A stretch of 43,372 nucleotides of DNA, from sequence record NC_073321.1; one strand, written 5' to 3'. This document shows positions 9,973-43,372 of this stretch, piece by piece. A model generated the notes under the pieces. The model was not told the DNA's origin, searched no databases, and saw only the letters and a program-made list of their open reading frames with translations. Each line of letters opens with the position of its first letter. Within the stretch, counting starts at the first letter, position 1. The DNA comes from Escherichia phage ZCEC5. A program made the translations under genes and the position numbers.

Positions 9973-11022
9973 ATGGCAATTACCACTATCGGCGATATCG
10001 TAACTGGCAACATCCCGGTCCTGGCGTCTTATATGACAGAGGACCCGGTAGAAAAAACCGCGTTCTTCCAGTCTGGTATTCTGACCCCGACTCCGTACGC
10101 CGCTGAGATTGCCCGCGGCCCGTCCAACATCGCCAACATTCCTTTCTGGAAAGCGATTGATACTTCTATTGAGCCTAACTACTCGAACGACGTGTATCAG
10201 GACATCGCTACCCCGCGTAATGTGCAAACCGGTGAGATGATGGCCCGCGTTGCGTACCTGAACGAAGGTTTTGGTCAGGCGGACCTGACTGTTGAACTTA
10301 CCAGCCAGAACCCGCTGCAATCCGTGGCTTCTCGTCTGGATAACTTCTGGCAGCGTCAGGCACAACGCCGTCTTATTGCTACCGCACTCGGTCTGTACAA
10401 CGACAACGTAGCCGCTACCGATGCTTACCACGAGCAGAACGACATGGTTATCGACGTGTCCGCTACTCTGGGCTTCGACTCCGGCGCGTTCATCGATGCT
10501 ACCCAGACTATGGGTGACGCTCTGATTGGCAACGGCGGTGAAGTGTTGGGCGCTATCGCGATGCACAGCTTCGTTTATGCGCAAGCACGTAAGCAACAGC
10601 TTATCGACTTTATCCGTGACGCCGACAACAACACCATGTTCGCCACCTACCAGGGCTACCGCGTGATTGTTGACGACAGCATGACCGTGGTCGGAACTGG
10701 CCCGAGCCGCAAGTTCATCTCCATCATCTTCGGCAACGGTGCTATCGGCTACGGAGAAGGCAATCCGGTCAAACCACTGCACTACGAGTATGAAGCGTCT
10801 CGTGGTAACGGCGGCGGCGTAGAAACCCTGTGGACCCGTAAGACCTGGTTGATGCACCCGCTGGGTTACAGCTTCACCAGCGCGGTAATCACTGGCAACG
10901 GCACCGAGACTATCGCCCGCTCTGCTTCATGGCAGGACCTGGCGAACGCCTCCAACTGGAACCGTGTGGTTGACCGTAAGCATGTACCGATTGCCTTCCT
11001 GGTAACTGGTGTCGGGGCTTAA
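9973..11022 (+). CDS. Major capsid protein
   Basis: 349 aa following scaffold, followed by terminator hairpin; size and position typical. Confidence 0.8.
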   Translation: MAITTIGDIVTGNIPVLASYMTEDPVEKTAFFQSGILTPTPYAAEIARGPSNIANIPFWKAIDTSIEPNYSNDVYQDIATPRNVQTGEMMARVAYLNEGFGQADLTVELTSQNPLQSVASRLDNFWQRQAQRRLIATALGLYNDNVAATDAYHEQNDMVIDVSATLGFDSGAFIDATQTMGDALIGNGGEVLGAIAMHSFVYAQARKQQLIDFIRDADNNTMFATYQGYRVIVDDSMTVVGTGPSRKFISIIFGNGAIGYGEGNPVKPLHYEYEASRGNGGGVETLWTRKTWLMHPLGYSFTSAVITGNGTETIARSASWQDLANASNWNRVVDRKHVPIAFLVTGVGA

Positions 11023-11037
11023 GGTTAAGCTATAATC

Positions 11038-11066
11038 GAGAGGGACTTCGGTCCCTCTTTTCATTT
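11038..11066 (+). terminator. Terminator/RNA-stability hairpin after capsid gene
   Basis: GAGAGGGAC-UUCG-GTCCCTCTT with UUCG tetraloop, then T-rich run. Confidence 0.45.
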
Positions 11067-11083: not shown

Positions 11084-11425
11084 ATGGCAGACGTATTGAA
11101 ACGACGCGTCACCGGCGTCTCCGCTGACGCCCCGGGCGCTAAGATTGACATGGCGACTATTTCTCCTGCGTCTTTCTCTTCCGCGCTGGCGGCTACTACC
11201 GCAGTGACCACAGGTGAAACTATGACGCTGACCGTAACCGTAGCTGGCGGTCTGGAGCCGTATTCTTACCAGTGGTATGAGAATAACAACGCTATCGCCG
11301 GGGCTAACGCGGCTACCTACGCTAAAGCGTCAACCACTACCGCTGATTCTGGTACGTATAAAGTGGTTGTTCACGATGTGTATGGTAATATTATCTCCAG
11401 CAGCACTGTAGCAACTGTGTCTTAA
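11084..11425 (+). CDS. Ig-like domain protein (Hoc-like decoration candidate)
   Basis: TLTVTVAGG...YSYQWYENN...SGTYKVVVHD Ig-like signature. Confidence 0.55.
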   Translation: MADVLKRRVTGVSADAPGAKIDMATISPASFSSALAATTAVTTGETMTLTVTVAGGLEPYSYQWYENNNAIAGANAATYAKASTTTADSGTYKVVVHDVYGNIISSSTVATVS

Positions 11426-29149: not shown

Positions 29150-29455
29150 TTATATTGTTGGTGTATGACTACTATAATAGTTCGCTATTAGGTCGTCAAC
29201 CTGTTTAAACGAACCAACGACAAAAACATTCGCGCCGCGTTTACGCATACGCTCGTGCTCACGTAACTGGTGCGGGTCTGGCTTCGTGTTTTCGTCTTTC
29301 TTAACCTCGACGAACCAGACGATGCCGCCGGGGAGAATTACCAGCAGGTCAGGAGCGCCCACTCTATTTTCGTACGACAATTTGCGTACAAGGCCCCCCA
29401 TGGCCTCAAATCGCTCTTTTGCGTATTTCTGAACAACTCCTTCTTTAGTTGCCAT
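29150..29455 (-). CDS. VRR-NUC domain nuclease
   Basis: GAPDLLV...VEVKK...Q...G..VFVV signature of the VRR-NUC PD-(D/E)xK fold; ATG 29455 chosen to avoid overlap with HNH gene. Confidence 0.7.
   Translation of the reverse strand: MATKEGVVQKYAKERFEAMGGLVRKLSYENRVGAPDLLVILPGGIVWFVEVKKDENTKPDPHQLREHERMRKRGANVFVVGSFKQVDDLIANYYSSHTPTI
29171..29199 (-). promoter_or_regulatory. Class A promoter TTGACG-17-TATAGT with palindrome AATAGCGAACTATT in spacer
   Basis: Same architecture as promoters at 33083-33111 and 35913-35941. Confidence 0.5.
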
Positions 29456-33082: not shown

Positions 33083-33111
33083 ACTATAATAGCTAACTAT
33101 TCATGTGTCAA
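33083..33111 (-). promoter_or_regulatory. Class A promoter TTGACA-17-TATAGT with palindrome AATAGTTAGCTATT
   Basis: Consensus -35, 17-bp spacer carrying the palindrome. Confidence 0.55.
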
Positions 33112-35912: not shown

Positions 35913-35941
35913 ACTATAATAGCGAACTATTCACGTGTCAA
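35913..35941 (-). promoter_or_regulatory. Class A promoter TTGACA-17-TATAGT with palindrome AATAGCGAACTATT
   Basis: Divergent from the Cro-like gene promoter. Confidence 0.55.
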
Positions 35942-39537: not shown

Positions 39538-39571
39538 TCACTTATCGAAACGAGACAGAGGAGTGAGAGTT

Positions 39572-40018
39572 ATGTTTAAGAAGGGTCAGTTGGTGAAAAC
39601 GAAACGCAGCGGACAATACGTATTAGTGTTGCGGGATGAGAACGAGCACGACAAGGATAATATAGTCGCCATATGGAGTCTGGTAAGAAAGAAAAATGGG
39701 TATACCTCACGTGATAATCTGAAACTCATCGGCAACAATTTTAAATTCAAAGGGGGCGGAGTGATGGAAGAATTAATTTGTATTGAATCCAGCCAGGATG
39801 TGCAGGATTGGTTTGTGAAAGGTAACAAATATTCGTCCGGAGTATATTACAACGGCCGTCGATATGTTTTAGACGAAGACGGTGATGAATGGGATTTAAA
39901 TGACGATGTAAGAGAAACTTTAACCGTTAGCAGGGTCAATGCTGTTTCTGCCTCATTCACAACGGCATCGAAACATGATGCTCGCGCCGCCGACTCTGAG
40001 GGAGGTTGCCGTGAATAA
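39572..40018 (+). CDS. Hypothetical protein (148 aa)
   Basis: RBS GAGGAG; first gene after class B promoter. Confidence 0.55.
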   Translation: MFKKGQLVKTKRSGQYVLVLRDENEHDKDNIVAIWSLVRKKNGYTSRDNLKLIGNNFKFKGGGVMEELICIESSQDVQDWFVKGNKYSSGVYYNGRRYVLDEDGDEWDLNDDVRETLTVSRVNAVSASFTTASKHDARAADSEGGCRE

Positions 40019-40235
40019 CATTTTAATTGTGGGGGTTGATATGAGTCCGTATAACGAATTCCGCTTACGCCGTCTTGTCTATGGTCTGCGCGCCGCCGAG
40101 TTTGTAGTTAAATGCCGGGAAAATTCTGAGCGCACCTATAAGGAACCGTGGCGTTTGGCTCATGCTAAGGCGGTAGCACAGTACCGGGGGTACAAGTTAA
40201 ACAGTTTCCTTAGACACCACGGGGTTGAGTTATGA
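40011..40235 (+). CDS. Hypothetical protein (74 aa)
   Basis: GTG start with RBS GAGGGAGG; ORF-track frame 39939..40235. Confidence 0.45.
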   Translation: MNNILIVGVDMSPYNEFRLRRLVYGLRAAEFVVKCRENSERTYKEPWRLAHAKAVAQYRGYKLNSFLRHHGVEL

Positions 40236-40381
40236 GAGAAGAATTCGAACGGTGGGCCGTCGTCGAGGGTCTGCCGGTTAACAAGGGTTCGAAGAAAGAG
40301 TACCTGAACGTTAAGACGCGTCTCGCGTGGCGGGCGTGGAAAGCTGGTGTGCAGTTCCGTGCTGGTGTAACAGGTCAATAG
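40232..40381 (+). CDS. Hypothetical small protein (49 aa)
   Basis: ATGA-coupled; followed by terminator. Confidence 0.4.
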   Translation: MREEFERWAVVEGLPVNKGSKKEYLNVKTRLAWRAWKAGVQFRAGVTGQ

Positions 40382-40404
40382 TTTGGGATTTTACTGAGTG
40401 ACTT

Positions 40405-40440
40405 ACGCTGCTACACAGCAGCGTATCATTTTTCTCATTT
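40405..40440 (+). terminator. Intrinsic terminator
   Basis: ACGCTGCT-ACAC-AGCAGCGT followed by ATCATTTTTCTCATTTTT. Confidence 0.6.
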
Positions 40441-40495
40441 TTGTTCTATTTCACCAAACGCAACAATCGAAGCGACTATTGCAGGAGATGCAACA

Positions 40496-40669
40496 ATGAT
40501 TACTAAAGAACAGGCCGAACAACTAATCACGTTAATTGACACGATGGTTGATATAAAAACCGATTTAGCAACGGCAACAGAGGAATCCGCTACCTGGTCG
40601 CTTGAAGAAAGAGAAGCAGAAGCGGAGCGCGAGCTGATGGCGTTCATCGGTTCTATAACACACCAATAA
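40496..40669 (+). CDS. Hypothetical acidic small protein (57 aa)
   Basis: RBS AGGAG. Confidence 0.4.
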   Translation: MITKEQAEQLITLIDTMVDIKTDLATATEESATWSLEEREAEAERELMAFIGSITHQ

Positions 40670-40676
40670 AATTTAC

Positions 40677-40705
40677 TTGCACACTAAGATAGAATAGGCT
40701 ACTAT
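40677..40705 (+). promoter_or_regulatory. Class B promoter TTGCAC-17-TACTAT with palindrome AATAGGCTACTATT
   Basis: Palindrome identical to the reverse complement of the 8342-8355 copy. Confidence 0.55.
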
Positions 40706-40736
40706 TCATTTACACAAACGAGAGGAGAGACAGAAG

Positions 40737-40856
40737 ATGTATAAGTATCTGACGGTAGAACAACTGGAACAGATTTACGCTGAGTTGCGAGTTTGTTGCG
40801 TATGCACCGGCGACTACAAACTTGTTTACGGCGAACTGGAGGCGGAAGATGAGTGA
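40737..40856 (+). CDS. Hypothetical small Cys-containing protein (39 aa)
   Basis: RBS GAGGAGAG; CCVC motif. Confidence 0.35.
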   Translation: MYKYLTVEQLEQIYAELRVCCVCTGDYKLVYGELEAEDE

Positions 40857-41538
40857 CAAAAACGAAGTATTCGAGTACCTGATTGACTGCATACGGCATC
40901 AGGTAAACAACAACCCGTACAAGCAACAGTGCGAAGACCTGGCGCGTGAGGTGCAGTCACTTAAAAACCAGTTACGTGATGCTTCGGCGCAGATTAAGGA
41001 GCTACACGTGGCGCTGGTCAAAGCTACGGGTGACGCGGGGGCGTACAAACTTGCGCGCAAGGGTGGGTACATTTCTGATGGTCAGCGCTACGTAGTAGGT
41101 GGACACGGGCCTGAGCCATCAGGTTGCCGTAAGGAAGATACGCAGGCCGGGGAATCGTGGGCTGAGTGCGACGGTTACGGCGCGTGCCCAGTACCGGACG
41201 ATACTGTTGTTGATATTAAGTTCCGAAGCGGTGAAGTGGAAAGTAATACCAAAGCGATGTGGTGGAGTTGGGGCACAACGGGAGGGCTATACGATATTGT
41301 TGCGTACCGTGTCGTCAAGCGACAATGTCACAAGGAAGATACCCGGGAATGCGAGCAATCCGGTTGCTGTAAAGAAGATACTCACGAGTGCCACCATAAC
41401 TGGCGATTCGTTAATGGTAAGGCTCCTGTCGTATGTATTAATTGCGGCGTGACTAAATCCAGCGGGTGTGAACACGAATGGCAATTTTACGGAGTCGGGT
41501 TTCCATGTATGTGCATTAAATGCGGGTTAAAGAAATGA
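40849..41538 (+). CDS. Cys-rich protein with three C-x-KEDT repeats (229 aa)
   Basis: GCRKEDTQAGE / QCHKEDTRECE / GCCKEDTHECH repeats plus C-terminal CINCG...CMCIKCG. Confidence 0.55.
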   Translation: MSDKNEVFEYLIDCIRHQVNNNPYKQQCEDLAREVQSLKNQLRDASAQIKELHVALVKATGDAGAYKLARKGGYISDGQRYVVGGHGPEPSGCRKEDTQAGESWAECDGYGACPVPDDTVVDIKFRSGEVESNTKAMWWSWGTTGGLYDIVAYRVVKRQCHKEDTRECEQSGCCKEDTHECHHNWRFVNGKAPVVCINCGVTKSSGCEHEWQFYGVGFPCMCIKCGLKK

Positions 41539-41738
41539 CCAGCATCTTATTTATCTGGGTACTGTCCGCAGGTCAGATGCACCTGGCGGCATCAGAAACG
41601 TTTTATTCTATGGAGGCGTGCCAGTCAGCGGCACGCGCCGCGGAGAACGCGCACTTCCTGTTTCAGGGCGACAAGCCCAACGATTCAGAGGTACGCGCTA
41701 TCTGCTCACCTAAGCGACTTGGCAATCAGGAGAAGTGA
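41535..41738 (+). CDS. Small secreted protein (67 aa) with predicted signal peptide
   Basis: MTSILFIWVLSAGQMHLAASE N-terminus; two Cys in mature part; ATGA-coupled. Confidence 0.45.
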   Translation: MTSILFIWVLSAGQMHLAASETFYSMEACQSAARAAENAHFLFQGDKPNDSEVRAICSPKRLGNQEK

Positions 41739-41923
41739 TTATGGTGCAGAGATATACCTACGACCAGATATTCGGGTTTACTCCCGATGTTGAGGGCGTG
41801 TTAGTGCTTTACGAAGATTACGCGAAACTCGAAGCTGAGTTACAGAAATACAAAGACCAGTTCCCGGATTACGTCGAGTGCGCGAACTGTGGGTCAGTTA
41901 CGCATGTGGAAGGGGTGGAGTGA
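41735..41923 (+). CDS. Hypothetical protein (62 aa)
   Basis: ATGA-coupled; C-terminal CANCGS. Confidence 0.45.
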   Translation: MIMVQRYTYDQIFGFTPDVEGVLVLYEDYAKLEAELQKYKDQFPDYVECANCGSVTHVEGVE

Positions 41924-42216
41924 TGTCGTTAGCAACTGACATCCTGAAACGAAGCGGCCTTTCGCCGCTGTCGCCGAGAGCTAAAACACAGATATACAAG
42001 CGTCGGGGTAACGCGCTGTACCCCGAGATTCAGGCCCGACGCAAAGCTATACGCGCCTGTGGATTCCAGAACGGGAAGGCCGTGAATCTCGGCGAGTTTA
42101 AAACACAGGAACGCGCAGCAATCGCTAATCGGCTATTTAATTACTGGAAATCGCTCGGATACGATGATATTCCGACGAAACCGCAGAGACGACAATACAT
42201 CTGGCGTCACAAATAA
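41923..42216 (+). CDS. Standalone AP2-like DNA-binding protein
   Basis: GKAVNLGEFKTQERAAIANRLF resembles the AP2-like C-termini of the three HNH proteins; no HNH motif. Confidence 0.45.
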   Translation: MSLATDILKRSGLSPLSPRAKTQIYKRRGNALYPEIQARRKAIRACGFQNGKAVNLGEFKTQERAAIANRLFNYWKSLGYDDIPTKPQRRQYIWRHK

Positions 42217-42246
42217 ACAGTTATTAAGATAAATCCTAAGCGTGGT

Positions 42247-42286
42247 ATCCTCCAGTTACTGCATACTTAATACGCACCTGGAGGAT
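42247..42286 (+). promoter_or_regulatory. RNA hairpin sequestering the Shine-Dalgarno of the holin gene
   Basis: 9-bp stem ATCCTCCAG / CTGGAGGAT with 22-nt loop; right arm holds GGAGG 7 nt before the TTG start. Confidence 0.4.
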
Positions 42287-42291
42287 TCATC

Positions 42292-42600
42292 TTGGATAAA
42301 TTTACTGAAACAGTGACAGGCTGGCTCCTCGCCGCCGCACTAGCCGGTGGGGTAATCGGACTACGACAACATAAGTCCGCTATTTCCGGCCCTATCGACG
42401 GATTCTGCTTTATTGCAACCGGCTTCACCTGCGCCGTATTTGGTGCGCCTCTCGCGGCTCAATGGTTCGATATTACTGGTGAGCGTGAAATCGCTGGTCT
42501 GGGATTCATCATCGCTATTCTCTGGATGCCTATTTATTCCCGCCTCTCCGGTATCGTCTCTGGAGAATACATCGCTCGTCGAGGAGGCACAGATGAATGA
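42292..42600 (+). CDS. Holin candidate (class I-like, 3 TM segments)
   Basis: 102 aa, three hydrophobic helices, charged C-terminus; TTG start; adjacent to endolysin across the window junction. Confidence 0.5.
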   Translation: MDKFTETVTGWLLAAALAGGVIGLRQHKSAISGPIDGFCFIATGFTCAVFGAPLAAQWFDITGEREIAGLGFIIAILWMPIYSRLSGIVSGEYIARRGGTDE

Positions 42601-42865
42601 GTTATTCTGGTTCGGTGGTATGCTGGCAATCGGGGGCACATCGCTGTTTAATGTGTATCATCCCAGCGTGGACGACGGATTATTTGGCCGGGTGCTCTAT
42701 ATCCTGACTGCCATCGTCTGTGCCGCCGGATGTATCCACCTGTTACAGGGCAGCATGTCACCTACGTTGCCTGAGACATTAATCACATTAGTTGCGCTGC
42801 GCCAGATTCGCCAGGCGTGGCTATCATACGGAGGACATAAGCGTGTCTCGAAACATTTCAGATAA
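42593..42865 (+). CDS. Second small membrane protein of lysis cassette (holin/antiholin candidate, 2 TM)
   Basis: 90 aa; RBS GAGGAGG; ATGA-coupled; basic C-terminus. Confidence 0.4.
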   Translation: MNELFWFGGMLAIGGTSLFNVYHPSVDDGLFGRVLYILTAIVCAAGCIHLLQGSMSPTLPETLITLVALRQIRQAWLSYGGHKRVSKHFR

Positions 42866-43372
42866 TGGGCTTACCGCAGATAAACTGCGGGAGGTTTTAC
42901 ACTACAACCCTGACACCGGAGTTTTTACATGGAAATCTACACGCGTGCACAATGCTCGGGTGGGGAGTGAGGCTGGGGCCAACCATGGCGCAGGCTATCG
43001 CTCCATAGCCCTCGGCGGGAAGCGGTACTTGGCGCATCGTCTCGCCTGGCTATACATGACAGGGGAGTGGCCCAACTCCCTGATAGACCACATAAACGGC
43101 GATGGACGTGATAATAGATTCTGTAATTTACGTGAAGCCAACAAATCCGAAAACGGATGCAACAAAGGGCCAAGAAAGGACAGCAAATCTGGTATTAAGA
43201 ACGTTATGTGGCAGAAGCAACAAGGAGGATGGTACGTTCAATTAAAAATACATAAGATTAAGTATTTTTACGGATACTTTGCGGACCTAGAACTAGCCGC
43301 GCTAGTTGCCGAAGAAGCTAGAGAGAAGATACACGGGGTTTTTGCGAACCATAAATTACGGGAAGGTGCTTT
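42843..43372 (+). CDS. HNH-AP2 homing endonuclease (3' end runs off the window)
   Basis: GTG start with RBS GGAGGA; DHINGDGRDNRFCNLR HNH motif; AP2-like segment; no stop before window end. Confidence 0.7.
   Translation, partial: MSRNISDNGLTADKLREVLHYNPDTGVFTWKSTRVHNARVGSEAGANHGAGYRSIALGGKRYLAHRLAWLYMTGEWPNSLIDHINGDGRDNRFCNLREANKSENGCNKGPRKDSKSGIKNVMWQKQQGGWYVQLKIHKIKYFYGYFADLELAALVAEEAREKIHGVFANHKLREGA

What the first reader, a model, noticed from the sequence alone, without database searches (positions are those of the whole stretch)
42247..42300. Shine-Dalgarno of the holin candidate is locked in a 9-bp hairpin, with a possible second start
ATCCTCCAG (42247-42255) pairs perfectly with CTGGAGGAT (42278-42286), which carries the GGAGG for the TTG start at 42292. 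An in-frame GTG eight codons downstream would give a product lacking the charged N-terminal residues D2, K3 and E6. This resembles the lambda S dual-start holin/antiholin arrangement.
Basis: partly seen in the sequence, partly recalled or inferred. Interest (0 to 1): 0.5.

Follow-up and report, generated by a model that had tools for sequence, protein, structure and literature searches.

The report
Conserved hairpin masking a phage holin's ribosome site
The hairpin that buries the ribosome-binding site of this E. coli phage's holin gene is real and conserved across related phages, probably as a safety lock against premature lysis, but the proposed lambda-like second start codon is not supported.

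Summary
The window is a Kagunavirus (Guernseyvirinae) coliphage. The 9-bp hairpin (42247-42255 / 42278-42286) exists exactly as described. It buries the GGAGG Shine-Dalgarno (SD) sequence of the TTG-started holin gene (42292-42600). Of 71 crude gene starts in the window, this one has the most occluded SD.

The leader is nearly frozen in 44 Kagunavirus genomes, with diversity about 16 times lower than at synonymous sites. In sister lineages (Jerseyvirus, Dhillonvirus, KW1E-like, eiAU and others) a hairpin of different sequence sits at the same place, kept by compensatory changes and + strand G.U wobbles. In most of them it is a canonical terminator whose 3' arm is the holin's SD. Kagunavirus has lost the U-tract but kept the stem.

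A conserved extended -10-like motif (TGnTAxxxT) overlaps the 5' arm in every lineage. Transcripts started there would lack that arm and have an open SD. My best reading is a filter on transcript origin: read-through mRNA cannot make holin, while the cassette's own mRNA can. The promoter is inferred, not shown.

The dual-start idea fails. GTG is codon 8, has no SD, lies in an insertion absent from homologues, and the extra residues carry net charge -1, not an added positive charge.

The parts
42215..42240 (+). 5' edge of the conserved lysis-cassette leader module (AAACAGTTATTAAGATAAATCC...), including the (G/A)GATAA(A/T)TCC near-palindrome
   Evidence: Similarity to other Kagunaviruses begins at 42215 even where the upstream gene is a different one (an HslV-like protease). 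The GGATAAATCC motif is also present in Jerseyvirus and in the L127-type leaders. Its function is unknown.
42243..42251 (+). Extended -10-like element TGgTATCCT (TGn + T-12, A-11, T-7); putative holin/late promoter (inferred)
   Evidence: TG and TATCCT are invariant in 44 Kagunavirus leaders, while the 'n' position (42245) is a 50/50 G/C polymorphism. The same TGnTAxxxT motif is seen at the same position relative to the stem in P0017-type, Jerseyvirus, L127/L129/L131, Dhillonvirus, L098 and eiAU. KW1E has TTGACC-17-TACTAT instead. The window scan did not call it, because the -35 is poor.
42247..42255 (+). 5' arm of the hairpin, AUCCUCCAG (anti-SD-like CCUCC)
   Evidence: conservation; covariation.
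42256..42277 (+). 22-nt loop; the predicted transcription start (about 42258, an A) lies here if 42246-42251 is a -10 element
   Evidence: TSS placed 7 nt after the hexamer; an inference. The loop sequence is conserved within Kagunavirus (pi 0.022), but it is unrelated and shorter (15 nt) in the P0017-type lineage.
42278..42286 (+). 3' arm of the hairpin, CUGGAGGAU, carrying the Shine-Dalgarno GGAGG (42280-42284)
   Evidence: CPT annotators place the RBS on this GGAGG in phage Snoke.
42287..42291 (+). Spacer TCATC. Together with A42285 and T42286 of the 3' arm it gives the 7-nt SD-to-start spacing. It is the remnant of the U-tract found in sister lineages.
   Evidence: P0017-type has TTATT, Jerseyvirus TTTTTTTATT and Dhillonvirus TTTTT at this place. 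After the stem the window has only 4 T in 8 bases, so it is not terminator-like (scan criteria).
42292..42600 (+). Holin gene (102 aa, TTG start, three hydrophobic segments)
   Evidence: phrog_2359 'holin', E = 5e-30. Annotated as a holin, with the same 309-nt CDS, in relatives. Hydropathy.
42313..42315 (+). GTG, codon 8 (Val): the proposed second start, judged not to be a start
   Evidence: No SD upstream. It lies in the TVTG insertion absent from Dhillonvirus homologues. It sits inside a block where all synonymous sites are frozen.
42593..42865 (+). Second holin-like gene (90 aa). Its ATG overlaps the end of the first holin gene and has its own strong SD, GAGGAGG (42581-42587).
   Evidence: phrog_2508 'holin', E = 1.9e-33. 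Sequence. Annotated 'holin/antiholin class II' in Snoke.

Best explanation
The hairpin is a conserved RNA element of the leader that heads the lysis cassette, and it acts as a lock on holin translation.

In any mRNA that contains both arms, the anti-SD-like 5' arm (AUCCUCCAG) pairs with the holin's GGAGG. Such mRNAs are the transcripts that read through from the co-oriented small genes upstream. On them, ribosomes cannot load at the single genuine start, TTG 42292.

The element is the Kagunavirus version of a hairpin found at the same place in sister phage lineages. There it is also a canonical intrinsic terminator (stem plus U-tract) whose 3' arm serves as the holin's SD. Kagunavirus has lost the U-tract and enlarged the loop but kept the stem, so SD occlusion is the function that has been retained.

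A conserved extended -10-like motif (TGgTATCCT, 42243-42251) overlaps the 5' arm. RNA polymerase starting there, at about 42258, would make a 34-nt leader without the 5' arm, on which the SD is open. The composite therefore filters transcripts by origin: holin is made only from the cassette's own mRNA, and a weak TTG start further tunes the amount. There is no second start.

Shown by computation: the hairpin, its stability, its conservation, its covariation, and the predicted occlusion of the SD. Inferred: the promoter, the transcription start, and the consequence for lysis timing.
For: Hairpin and occlusion:
- The arms are exactly complementary.
- Folding energy is -14.2 to -17.3 kcal/mol.
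- SD pairing probability is 0.88, rank 1 of 71 gene starts.

Constraint:
- Nucleotide diversity over 42241-42291 is 0.021, against 0.345 at holin third codon positions, in 44 unique Kagunavirus sequences.

Structure kept while sequence changes:
- P0017-type has two 5'-arm transitions (C->U, A->G) that both give G.U wobbles, plus an unrelated 15-nt loop.
- Jerseyvirus has AUCUCCGAA/UUCGGAGAU.
- L127, L129 and L131 have CUCCGUAU/AUACGGAG variants.
- On an alignment not fitted to the structure, 91.5% of cells pair, 5 of 10 pairs change on both sides, and the covariation score is 0.442 against 0.164 in shuffles (0 of 500) and at most 0.144 when slid.
- Dhillonvirus HK578, L098, KW1E/KLB22 and Edwardsiella phage eiAU have hairpins of other sequences at the same place. 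Each has a G-rich SD in the 3' arm, and z-scores run from -3.2 to -7.0.
- The wobble pairs are compatible only with the + strand RNA.

Terminator relationship:
- The scanner calls the HK578, KW1E and eiAU hairpins terminator-like.
- Lineages without a U-tract (Kagunavirus, L127-type) still maintain the stem.

Promoter:
- TGnTAxxxT is found at a fixed position relative to the stem in 9 lineages, with n free to vary.
- In KW1E, TTGACC-17-TACTAT ends one base before the stem.
- Only 1 of 12 other terminator-like hairpins in the window has a TAnnnT hexamer so placed.

Predicted consequence:
- The probability that the SD is unpaired is about 0 to 0.02 in read-through RNA, against 0.26 to 0.68 in RNA starting at the predicted TSS, in 8 of 10 lineages.

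Single start:
- The aligned first codon alternates between TTG, GTG and ATG while M-D-(D)-K is conserved.
Against: - No transcription start has been mapped. The two Kagunavirus genome papers that hold the search terms report in-silico predictions only.
- The -35 region in the window is poor (at best 4 of 6), and the consensus scan does not report a promoter here.
- In Jerseyvirus the SD of the hypothetical promoter-initiated RNA is still predicted paired (unpaired probability 0.026), with codons 6-7.
- In the P0017-type lineage the hairpin competes with other folds in a 100-nt context (unpaired probability 0.33).
- The strong conservation of the 22-nt loop and of synonymous sites in codons 2-8 within Kagunavirus is not explained by the model.
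- Serratia phage Scapp and Pantoea phage LIET2 have a -10-like hexamer before a terminator that is not adjacent to the holin start, and they lack TG or a -35. The motif may therefore have another role.
Confidence: 0.5

Rival explanations
1. Constitutive translational throttle. There is no internal promoter. All holin mRNA carries both arms, and the hairpin, together with the weak TTG start, keeps holin synthesis low and so sets a long, precise lysis time. Ribosomes load only when the stem breathes.
For: The hairpin, the SD occlusion and the TTG start are all as computed. Weak starts (TTG or GTG) recur in this holin family: Kagunavirus, P0017-type, Jerseyvirus, Scapp and LIET2. The -35 is poor and no promoter is called. 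In lambda, changes to holin translation efficiency shift lysis time.
Against: It does not explain the invariant TG, T-12 and A-11 outside the stem across lineages whose loop, spacer and 'n' position have diverged. It does not explain the near-consensus TTGACC-17-TACTAT that abuts the stem in KW1E. In sister genera the same hairpin is a strong terminator placed immediately before the start codon; without a downstream promoter that would starve the whole lysis cassette.
Confidence: 0.3
2. Transcription terminator or attenuator. In this phage too, the main job of the hairpin is to stop or reduce transcription coming from the upstream genes, and burial of the SD is a side-effect of genome compaction.
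For: The homologous hairpins in Dhillonvirus, KW1E/KLB22, eiAU and Jerseyvirus meet terminator criteria. KLB22 annotators marked a terminator over it (on the opposite strand), with the RBS inside it.
Against: In the window the loop is 22 nt and only 4 of the 8 bases after the stem are T (TCATCTTG), so terminator criteria fail. The L127-type lineage has no U-tract at all (TCCTCTCACCG), yet keeps the stem through compensatory changes. Something other than termination is therefore under selection.
Confidence: 0.1
3. One reading: a lambda S-like arrangement in which the hairpin partitions initiation between TTG 42292 (longer, antiholin-like product) and GTG 42313 (shorter holin).
For: The GTG is in frame and invariant in 44 Kagunavirus sequences and in the P0017-type lineage. 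The region upstream of it is A/U-rich and predicted unstructured. The distant KW1E/KLB22 homologues have a genuine M-H-K-M dual-start motif behind the same kind of hairpin.
Against: There is no SD within range of the GTG; GGAGG is 28 nt away. In lambda the two starts are 2 codons apart and each has its own SD. The TVTG segment is an insertion absent from Dhillonvirus holins, which have no alternative start. The longer form has a net N-terminal charge of -1, not an added positive charge. The invariance of GTG is shared by all synonymous sites of codons 2-8.
Confidence: 0.05
4. A chance inverted repeat with no function.
For: Perfect 9-bp inverted repeats with short loops are expected a few times per 43 kb (4.75 in shuffles). 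The z-score of the isolated fold is only -2.3.
Against: Diversity is about 16 times lower than at synonymous sites. Compensatory and wobble changes keep the pairing across lineages. Analogous hairpins with different sequences occur at the same place in at least 8 other lineages.
Confidence: 0.02

Closest known systems
Upstream stem-loop of the phage lambda S gene translation-initiation region (dual-start holin S105 / antiholin S107)
   Same: A stem-loop just 5' of a class I-type holin gene contains the strong SD and limits ribosome access to it. Holin translation rate is the lysis clock.
   Different: Lambda has two AUGs separated by one Lys codon, each with its own SD, and the stem-loop partitions initiation between them. 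Here there is one start. The candidate GTG is 7 codons away without an SD, and the extra residues are net negative. The stem here is longer (9 bp, against a structure spanning nt -21 to -7 in lambda). In relatives it doubles as a terminator.
Protection of IS-element transposase genes from outside transcription: IS10 'fold-back inhibition' and IS50 (from memory: Davis, Simons & Kleckner 1985; Schulz & Reznikoff 1991); IS200 left-end terminator plus SD-sequestering stem-loop (PMC4513863)
   Same: A toxic or tightly limited gene is shielded from read-through. Transcripts from outside contain a segment that folds back on the RBS. The element's own promoter starts transcription 3' of that segment. 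IS200 combines a terminator against impinging transcription with an SD-sequestering stem-loop.
   Different: Those are transposons, not phage lysis cassettes. In IS200 the terminator and the SD stem-loop are separate hairpins, and the SD stem-loop lies in the element's own 5'UTR. Here one hairpin would do both jobs. The internal promoter is inferred, not mapped.
Intrinsic (Rho-independent) terminators that precede the holin gene in Jerseyvirus, Dhillonvirus, KW1E/KLB22-like phages and Eiauvirus
   Same: Same genomic position, same orientation, the same overlap of the 5' arm with a -10-like hexamer, and the same use of the G-rich 3' arm as the SD.
   Different: The window's hairpin has a 22-nt loop and an interrupted U-tract (UCAUCUUG), so it is unlikely to terminate efficiently. 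Its SD is the full GGAGG and its start is TTG.

Membership tests
Lambda S-type dual-start holin/antiholin | Two in-frame start codons 1-3 codons apart, upstream of TMD1 | tested here: not met
   TTG 42292 and GTG 42313 are 7 codons apart, and there is no other ATG, GTG or TTG between them. In lambda the AUGs are separated by one codon.
Lambda S-type dual-start holin/antiholin | Each start served by an SD at a functional distance | tested here: not met
   GGAGG ends 7 nt before the TTG but 28 nt before the GTG, and 42295-42312 holds no SD-like motif.
Lambda S-type dual-start holin/antiholin | The longer product carries an extra positive charge at the N-terminus | tested here: not met
   Residues 1-10 (MDKFTETVTG) have net charge -1; the putative short form has 0.
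Lambda S-type dual-start holin/antiholin | Upstream stem-loop controlling access to the SD of the first start | tested here: met
   9-bp stem over GGAGG, -14.2 to -17.3 kcal/mol.
Lambda S-type dual-start holin/antiholin | The second start is conserved among homologues | tested here: not met
   It is present in Kagunavirus and the P0017-type lineage only. It lies in a TVTG insertion absent from Dhillonvirus, and Dhillonvirus, eiAU and Jerseyvirus have no equivalent.
Lambda S-type dual-start holin/antiholin | Two protein products detected | not testable with these tools
   Needs western blotting, mass spectrometry or toeprinting.
SD-sequestering (anti-SD) translational hairpin | The SD is base-paired in a stable local structure in the mRNA | tested here: met
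   The SD is unpaired with probability about 0 in read-through RNA. It ranks 1 of 71 gene starts for SD pairing.
SD-sequestering (anti-SD) translational hairpin | Pairing is maintained in evolution by compensatory change | tested here: met
   5 of 10 pairs change on both sides; covariation score 0.442 against 0.164 in shuffles (0 of 500).
SD-sequestering (anti-SD) translational hairpin | Disrupting the stem raises translation | not testable with these tools
   Needs reporter fusions or toeprinting.
Intrinsic terminator | Stem with a short loop (about 3-10 nt) | tested here: not met
   The window's loop is 22 nt with only a weak 3-bp inner helix. Relatives have loops of 6-9 nt.
Intrinsic terminator | U-tract immediately 3' of the stem | tested here: not met
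   TCATCTTG has 4 T in 8 bases, below the scanner's threshold. The criterion is met in HK578, KW1E, eiAU and Jerseyvirus.
Sigma-70 extended -10 promoter | TGn followed by a hexamer with T-12, A-11 and T-7 | tested here: met
   TGgTATCCT at 42243-42251. These positions are invariant while n varies. The same motif is present in 9 lineages.
Sigma-70 extended -10 promoter | Recognisable -35 hexamer at 16-18 nt | tested here: not met
   The best candidate is TTAAGA at 16 nt (4 of 6), and TTAGGA (3 of 6) in about half of the relatives. It is not called by the scan. A -35 is not obligatory for extended -10 promoters (own knowledge).
Sigma-70 extended -10 promoter | Mapped transcription start | not testable with these tools
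   The Kagunavirus genome papers examined hold in-silico predictions only, and a search for Dhillonvirus with 'transcription start' found no paper.
Read-through protection of the IS10/IS50 'fold-back' type | The 5' segment that occludes the RBS lies upstream of the gene's own transcription start | tested here: inconclusive
   This is true if the start lies 7 nt after the -10-like hexamer (42258). The geometry holds in all lineages, but the start is only predicted.
Read-through protection of the IS10/IS50 'fold-back' type | Co-directional transcription can enter from upstream | tested here: met
   All ORFs from about 39563 to 42216 are on the + strand, and there is no terminator-like site on the + strand between 40425 and the holin gene.
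Class I holin (three TMDs, N-out/C-in) | Small protein with three TMDs and a charged C-terminus, encoded in a lysis cassette | tested here: met
   Three hydrophobic segments (about 9-24, 36-58, 67-83); loop 1 has charge +2 and loop 2 has -2. phrog_2359 'holin'. A second holin-like gene follows, and relatives have an endolysin next. TMHMM as used by CPT predicts the opposite orientation. The hole-forming function has not been tested.

The most novel reading that the evidence does not exclude
A single compact element, conserved across several genera of about 40-45 kb enterobacterial siphophages (Kagunavirus, Jerseyvirus, Dhillonvirus, Eiauvirus, KW1E-like), superimposes three things: a promoter, a terminator-derived hairpin, and the holin's ribosome-binding site. 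Holin can then be translated only from mRNA that starts inside the hairpin. Read-through RNA from earlier genes is terminated, translationally silenced, or both. This would be a transcript-origin safety lock on lysis, working like IS10 fold-back inhibition, and I found no description of it for phage lysis genes.
Probability: 0.45. Interest if true: 0.6.

Novelty: new variant of a known kind. Interest (0 to 1): 0.42.

Why it matters
Holin expression sets the time of lysis, and premature holin is fatal to the phage. How virulent siphophages without a lambda-type Q antiterminator keep their holin silent early in infection is largely unstudied.

If the composite element works as proposed, it gives a simple, testable answer for a large group of phages, many of them therapy candidates: Kagunavirus, Jerseyvirus and Dhillonvirus, with hundreds of genomes. 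It would also give a compact, portable genetic part that insulates a toxic gene from read-through.

The analysis also corrects the tempting lambda analogy. Annotators should not assume a dual start here, and the TTG start should be kept. Even if the promoter part proves wrong, the hairpin is a well-supported translational control element for holin in this family.

Tried and rejected
- **Long-range fold of 42200-42340** (-40.2 kcal/mol, z = -3.4). Its outer helices, for example CAGU 42218-42221 with ACUG 42304-42307, fall on polymorphic sites (42219-42221) that break the pairs in most relatives. Only the core hairpin is supported.
- **Rfam.** No family matches 42000-42700 at E <= 1.
- **Repeated regulatory motifs in the window.** CGTGNTATNNT, TGNTATNNT and AAACNNNTATTANGAT occur no more often than chance.
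- **First MAFFT alignment across all leader types** (A3). It put the arms out of register and was not used. The Guernseyvirinae-only alignment A4 was usable.
- **Bacterial genomes.** No relatives of the holin were found, so there is no prophage context to use.
- **Word-indexed protein search.** It returned only close relatives. Distant ones came from tblastn.
- **Literature.** The two Kagunavirus genome papers that hold the search terms have in-silico promoter and terminator lists only. The terminator annotated in fBC-Eco01 lies inside the holin gene, not at the leader. I could not retrieve a paper describing IS10/IS50 fold-back inhibition, so that comparison rests on memory.
- **A DNA-level operator (protein-binding palindrome).** Rejected because loop length runs from 6 to 22 nt between lineages, and the substitutions give G.U pairs on the + strand RNA only.
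- **Distant holin homologues that lack the arrangement.** Pectobacterium phage Arno162, the high-GC loci L101/L102, and phages ep3 and PPpW-3, where the holin gene directly follows a 'late transcriptional activator' gene.
Full report
**What the window is.** The region matches Kagunavirus coliphages (subfamily Guernseyvirinae) at about 88-94% identity. In those genomes the 309-nt ORF equivalent to 42292-42600 is annotated as a holin. A second holin-like gene and a P22-type endolysin follow it. In this window an HNH endonuclease gene (PF13392) sits after the second holin-like gene. The two membrane proteins hit PHROG holin families: phrog_2359 at E = 5e-30 and phrog_2508 at E = 1.9e-33. Neither hits Pfam. 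All genes from about 39.5 kb to the holin are on the + strand, downstream of a divergent control region.

**The observation.**
- ATCCTCCAG (42247-42255) and CTGGAGGAT (42278-42286) are perfectly complementary, with a 22-nt loop.
- GGAGG (42280-42284) lies 7 nt before TTG 42292. That TTG is the first possible start after an in-frame stop at 42268.
- GTG 42313 is in frame. It is codon 8, so 7 codons downstream rather than 8.
- The hairpin alone folds at -14.2 kcal/mol. The stretch 42240-42300 folds at -17.3 kcal/mol, z = -2.3 against shuffles.

A perfect 9-bp inverted repeat with a short loop is not rare in itself: 16 such 9-mers occur in the window, against about 4.75 in shuffles. Its location is what stands out. 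Among 71 crudely called gene starts, the holin has the highest predicted SD pairing probability, 0.88.

**Conservation within Kagunavirus.**
- In 44 unique leader-plus-gene sequences, nucleotide diversity over 42241-42291 is 0.021. At third codon positions of the holin gene it is 0.345.
- Both arms are invariant, apart from one A->G change that turns an A-U pair into G.U.
- The conserved module starts at 42215, whichever gene lies upstream.
- Three things stay unexplained by a simple hairpin: the loop is as conserved as the stem, synonymous sites of codons 2-8 are frozen, and T42243, G42244 and T42246 outside the stem are invariant while 42245 between them is a 50/50 G/C polymorphism.

**Relatives with diverged leaders.** Homologous holins in other lineages all have a hairpin at the same place, with a different sequence.

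| Lineage | Stem (5' arm / 3' arm) | Loop | After the stem | Start |
|---|---|---|---|---|
| P0017-type (holin 67% identical) | AUCCUCUGG / CUGGAGGAU; the two 5'-arm changes (C->U, A->G) both give G.U wobbles | 15 nt, unrelated to the window's | U-rich tail | TTG |
| Jerseyvirus | AUCUCCGAA / UUCGGAGAU | about 9 nt when the stem extends to 12 pairs | U7 | GVG... GTG |
| L127, L129, L131 | CUCCGUAU / AUACGGAG and variants | about 7-8 nt as folded | no U-tract | ATG |
| Dhillonvirus HK578 | 12-bp AGUCCCAGUGAG / CUUACUGGGACU | 6 nt | U6 | ATG |
| L098 | variant of the Dhillonvirus stem | about 3 nt as folded | U6 | ATG |
| KW1E / KLB22 | UCCCCG / CGGGGA | 7-10 nt | U7-8 | ATG |
| Edwardsiella phage eiAU | GGCCCUGUA / UACGGGGCC | 7 nt | UUUUCUU | ATG |

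In every case the G-rich 3' arm is the only SD-like sequence in range of the start codon. Fold z-scores run from -1.9 to -7.0.

I aligned 13 Guernseyvirinae leaders with MAFFT, without fitting to any structure. On that alignment:
- 91.5% of cells pair, against 75.9% in shuffles.
- 5 of 10 pairs change on both sides.
- The covariation score is 0.442, against 0.164 in shuffles (0 of 500 reach it) and at most 0.144 in slid controls.

The wobble substitutions are compatible with pairing only in the + strand transcript, and loop length varies from 6 to 22 nt. The element is therefore an RNA structure, not a protein-binding palindrome.

**Relation to terminators.** The scanner classes the HK578, KW1E and eiAU hairpins as terminator-like. 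The Jerseyvirus one has the same form. The window's version has a 22-nt loop and only 4 T among the 8 bases after the stem, so it fails those criteria. The L127-type leaders have no U-tract at all, yet keep the stem through compensatory change. Termination therefore cannot be the function that maintains the stem in these lineages. Occlusion of the SD is the common denominator.

**A promoter-like motif overlapping the 5' arm.**
- In nine lineages a TGnTAxxxT motif, an extended -10 with T-12, A-11 and T-7, sits so that the 5' arm occupies the last bases of the hexamer and the discriminator.
- The motifs are TGgTATCCT (window), TGtTAATCT (Jerseyvirus), TGaTAATCT and TGcTAACCT (L127-type), TGaTATAGT (Dhillonvirus, L098) and TGtTACCAT (eiAU).
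- The n position is free to vary within and between lineages.
- KW1E/KLB22 lack TG but have TTGACC-17-TACTAT ending one base before the stem, and the scanner calls this a promoter.
- As a control, only 1 of 12 other terminator-like hairpins in the window has a TAnnnT hexamer in that position.
- If these are promoters, the start falls just 3' of the 5' arm in every lineage, at about 42258 in the window. The resulting 25-34-nt leaders lack the hairpin.
- The predicted probability that the SD is unpaired rises from about 0-0.02 in read-through RNA to 0.26-0.68 in 8 of 10 lineages.
- The two exceptions are Jerseyvirus, where the SD then pairs weakly with codons 6-7, and the P0017-type lineage, where the hairpin is context-dependent.
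- The promoter is an inference. The -35 is poor, the window scan does not call it, and I found no mapped transcription start for these phages in the papers searched.

**The start codons.**
- The aligned first codon is TTG in Kagunavirus, the P0017-type lineage and Scapp. It is GTG in Jerseyvirus and LIET2, and ATG in Dhillonvirus, KW1E, eiAU and L127-type.
- The following residues, M-D-(D)-K, are conserved. That pattern is expected only of a real initiation codon.
- The proposed second start fails on several counts:
 1. It has no SD.
 2. It lies 28 nt after GGAGG.
 3. It sits in a TVTG insertion that Dhillonvirus homologues lack.
 4. Other lineages have no counterpart.
- The N-terminal residues that would be removed carry net charge -1. 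The lambda antiholin differs from the holin by an added Lys. Lambda's two AUGs are one codon apart and each has its own SD.
- By hydropathy and the positive-inside rule, the protein has three TMDs in N-out/C-in orientation.

**Most likely mechanism.** The hairpin blocks ribosome loading on the holin SD in every transcript that contains both arms. Those are the transcripts that read through from the upstream early or middle genes. In sister genera the same hairpin also terminates them. A promoter overlapping the 5' arm would give the lysis cassette its own hairpin-free mRNA, and the TTG start tunes the amount made.
- This works like the protection of IS transposase genes from outside transcription. 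IS200 has a terminator plus an SD-sequestering stem-loop. The IS10 and IS50 fold-back comparison is from memory.
- It resembles lambda S only in having an SD-containing stem-loop.
- I give the full model about 0.5.
- The narrower claim, a functional and conserved SD-occluding hairpin with a single TTG start, I put at about 0.85.
- The main rival, at 0.3, is the same hairpin acting on all holin mRNA as a constant throttle.

**Novelty.** SD-sequestering hairpins, terminators next to promoters, and holin translational control are each known. The superposition of all three in one conserved element in front of holin genes across several phage genera was not described in the literature I could search. 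I rate it a new variant of a known kind and of moderate interest. It becomes more interesting if the internal transcription start is confirmed.

Noticed in passing
window 11031-11058: A consensus TATAAT (11031-11036) lies 2 nt before a terminator-like hairpin, AGAGGGAC-TTCG-GTCCCTCT plus a T-run. It sits after the long ORF ending at 11022 and before the gene starting at 11084. This is a second case in the same phage of a -10 element abutting the 5' arm of a terminator.
   Followed up: partly
window 42227-42236; L116 about 403-412; L127-L131: A near-palindrome, (G/A)GATAA(A/T)TCC, marks the 5' part of the conserved leader module in Kagunavirus, Jerseyvirus and L127-type phages. Its distance from the hairpin varies (9 nt against 32-34 nt). 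A similar GGATAAAT string recurs at holin codons 1-4. Its function is unknown; it may be a protein-binding site.
   Followed up: no
window 42295-42317: Third codon positions of holin codons 2-8 are almost invariant in 44 genomes (pi 0-0.17). From codon 9 onward they are highly polymorphic (about 0.5). The constrained block therefore extends about 25 nt into the coding region.
   Followed up: partly
window 42581-42600: The second holin-like gene starts at ATG 42593, inside the end of the first (stop TGA at 42598-42600). It has a strong, unstructured-looking SD, GAGGAGG (42581-42587). The arrangement suggests translational coupling, or independent and stronger initiation of the second protein.
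   Followed up: no
window 42843-43372: An HNH endonuclease gene (PF13392 HNH_3 plus a weak AP2 hit) begins by overlapping the end of the second holin-like gene and runs off the window. Most Kagunaviruses have the endolysin directly at this position. Only a few, such as BUCT825 and vB_Ec_DUEC01, carry an endonuclease there. It is probably a homing-endonuclease insertion in the lysis cassette.
   Followed up: partly
L104 505-516 (KW1E_UTAR); L114 386-397 (KLB22): These distant holin homologues begin ATG CAT AAG ATG (M-H-K-M). That is a genuine lambda-like dual-start motif, directly behind a terminator hairpin whose 3' arm is the SD. KLB22 annotators placed the RBS inside an annotated terminator.
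   Followed up: partly
L106 468-524 (Edwardsiella phage eiAU): The annotated holin start (ATG at 522) is probably 18 codons too short. An in-frame ATG at 468 follows the hairpin, SD and T-run at the usual spacing, gives an M-D N-terminus like the relatives, and the tblastn similarity begins upstream of 522.
   Followed up: partly
L110/L111 601-1413: In the P0017-type lineage (holin 67% identical) the holin gene is followed directly by the endolysin (PF00959), with no second holin-like gene. The second membrane protein is therefore dispensable in at least one related lineage.
   Followed up: no
L112 and L115 (phages ep3 and PPpW-3): In these more distant phages the homologous holin gene starts within 0-4 nt of the end of a gene annotated 'late transcriptional activator', with no room for a hairpin. 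This is a different solution for coupling holin expression to late transcription.
   Followed up: no
window 33083-33111, 35913-35941, 29171-29199 (- strand): Three near-consensus sigma-70 promoters (TTGACA or TTGACG, 17 nt, TATAGT) lie on the minus strand in the replication-gene block. The phage evidently relies on host RNA polymerase. The claim of a phage RNA polymerase promoter consensus in the fBC-Eco01 paper is an in-silico PHIRE prediction only.
   Followed up: no
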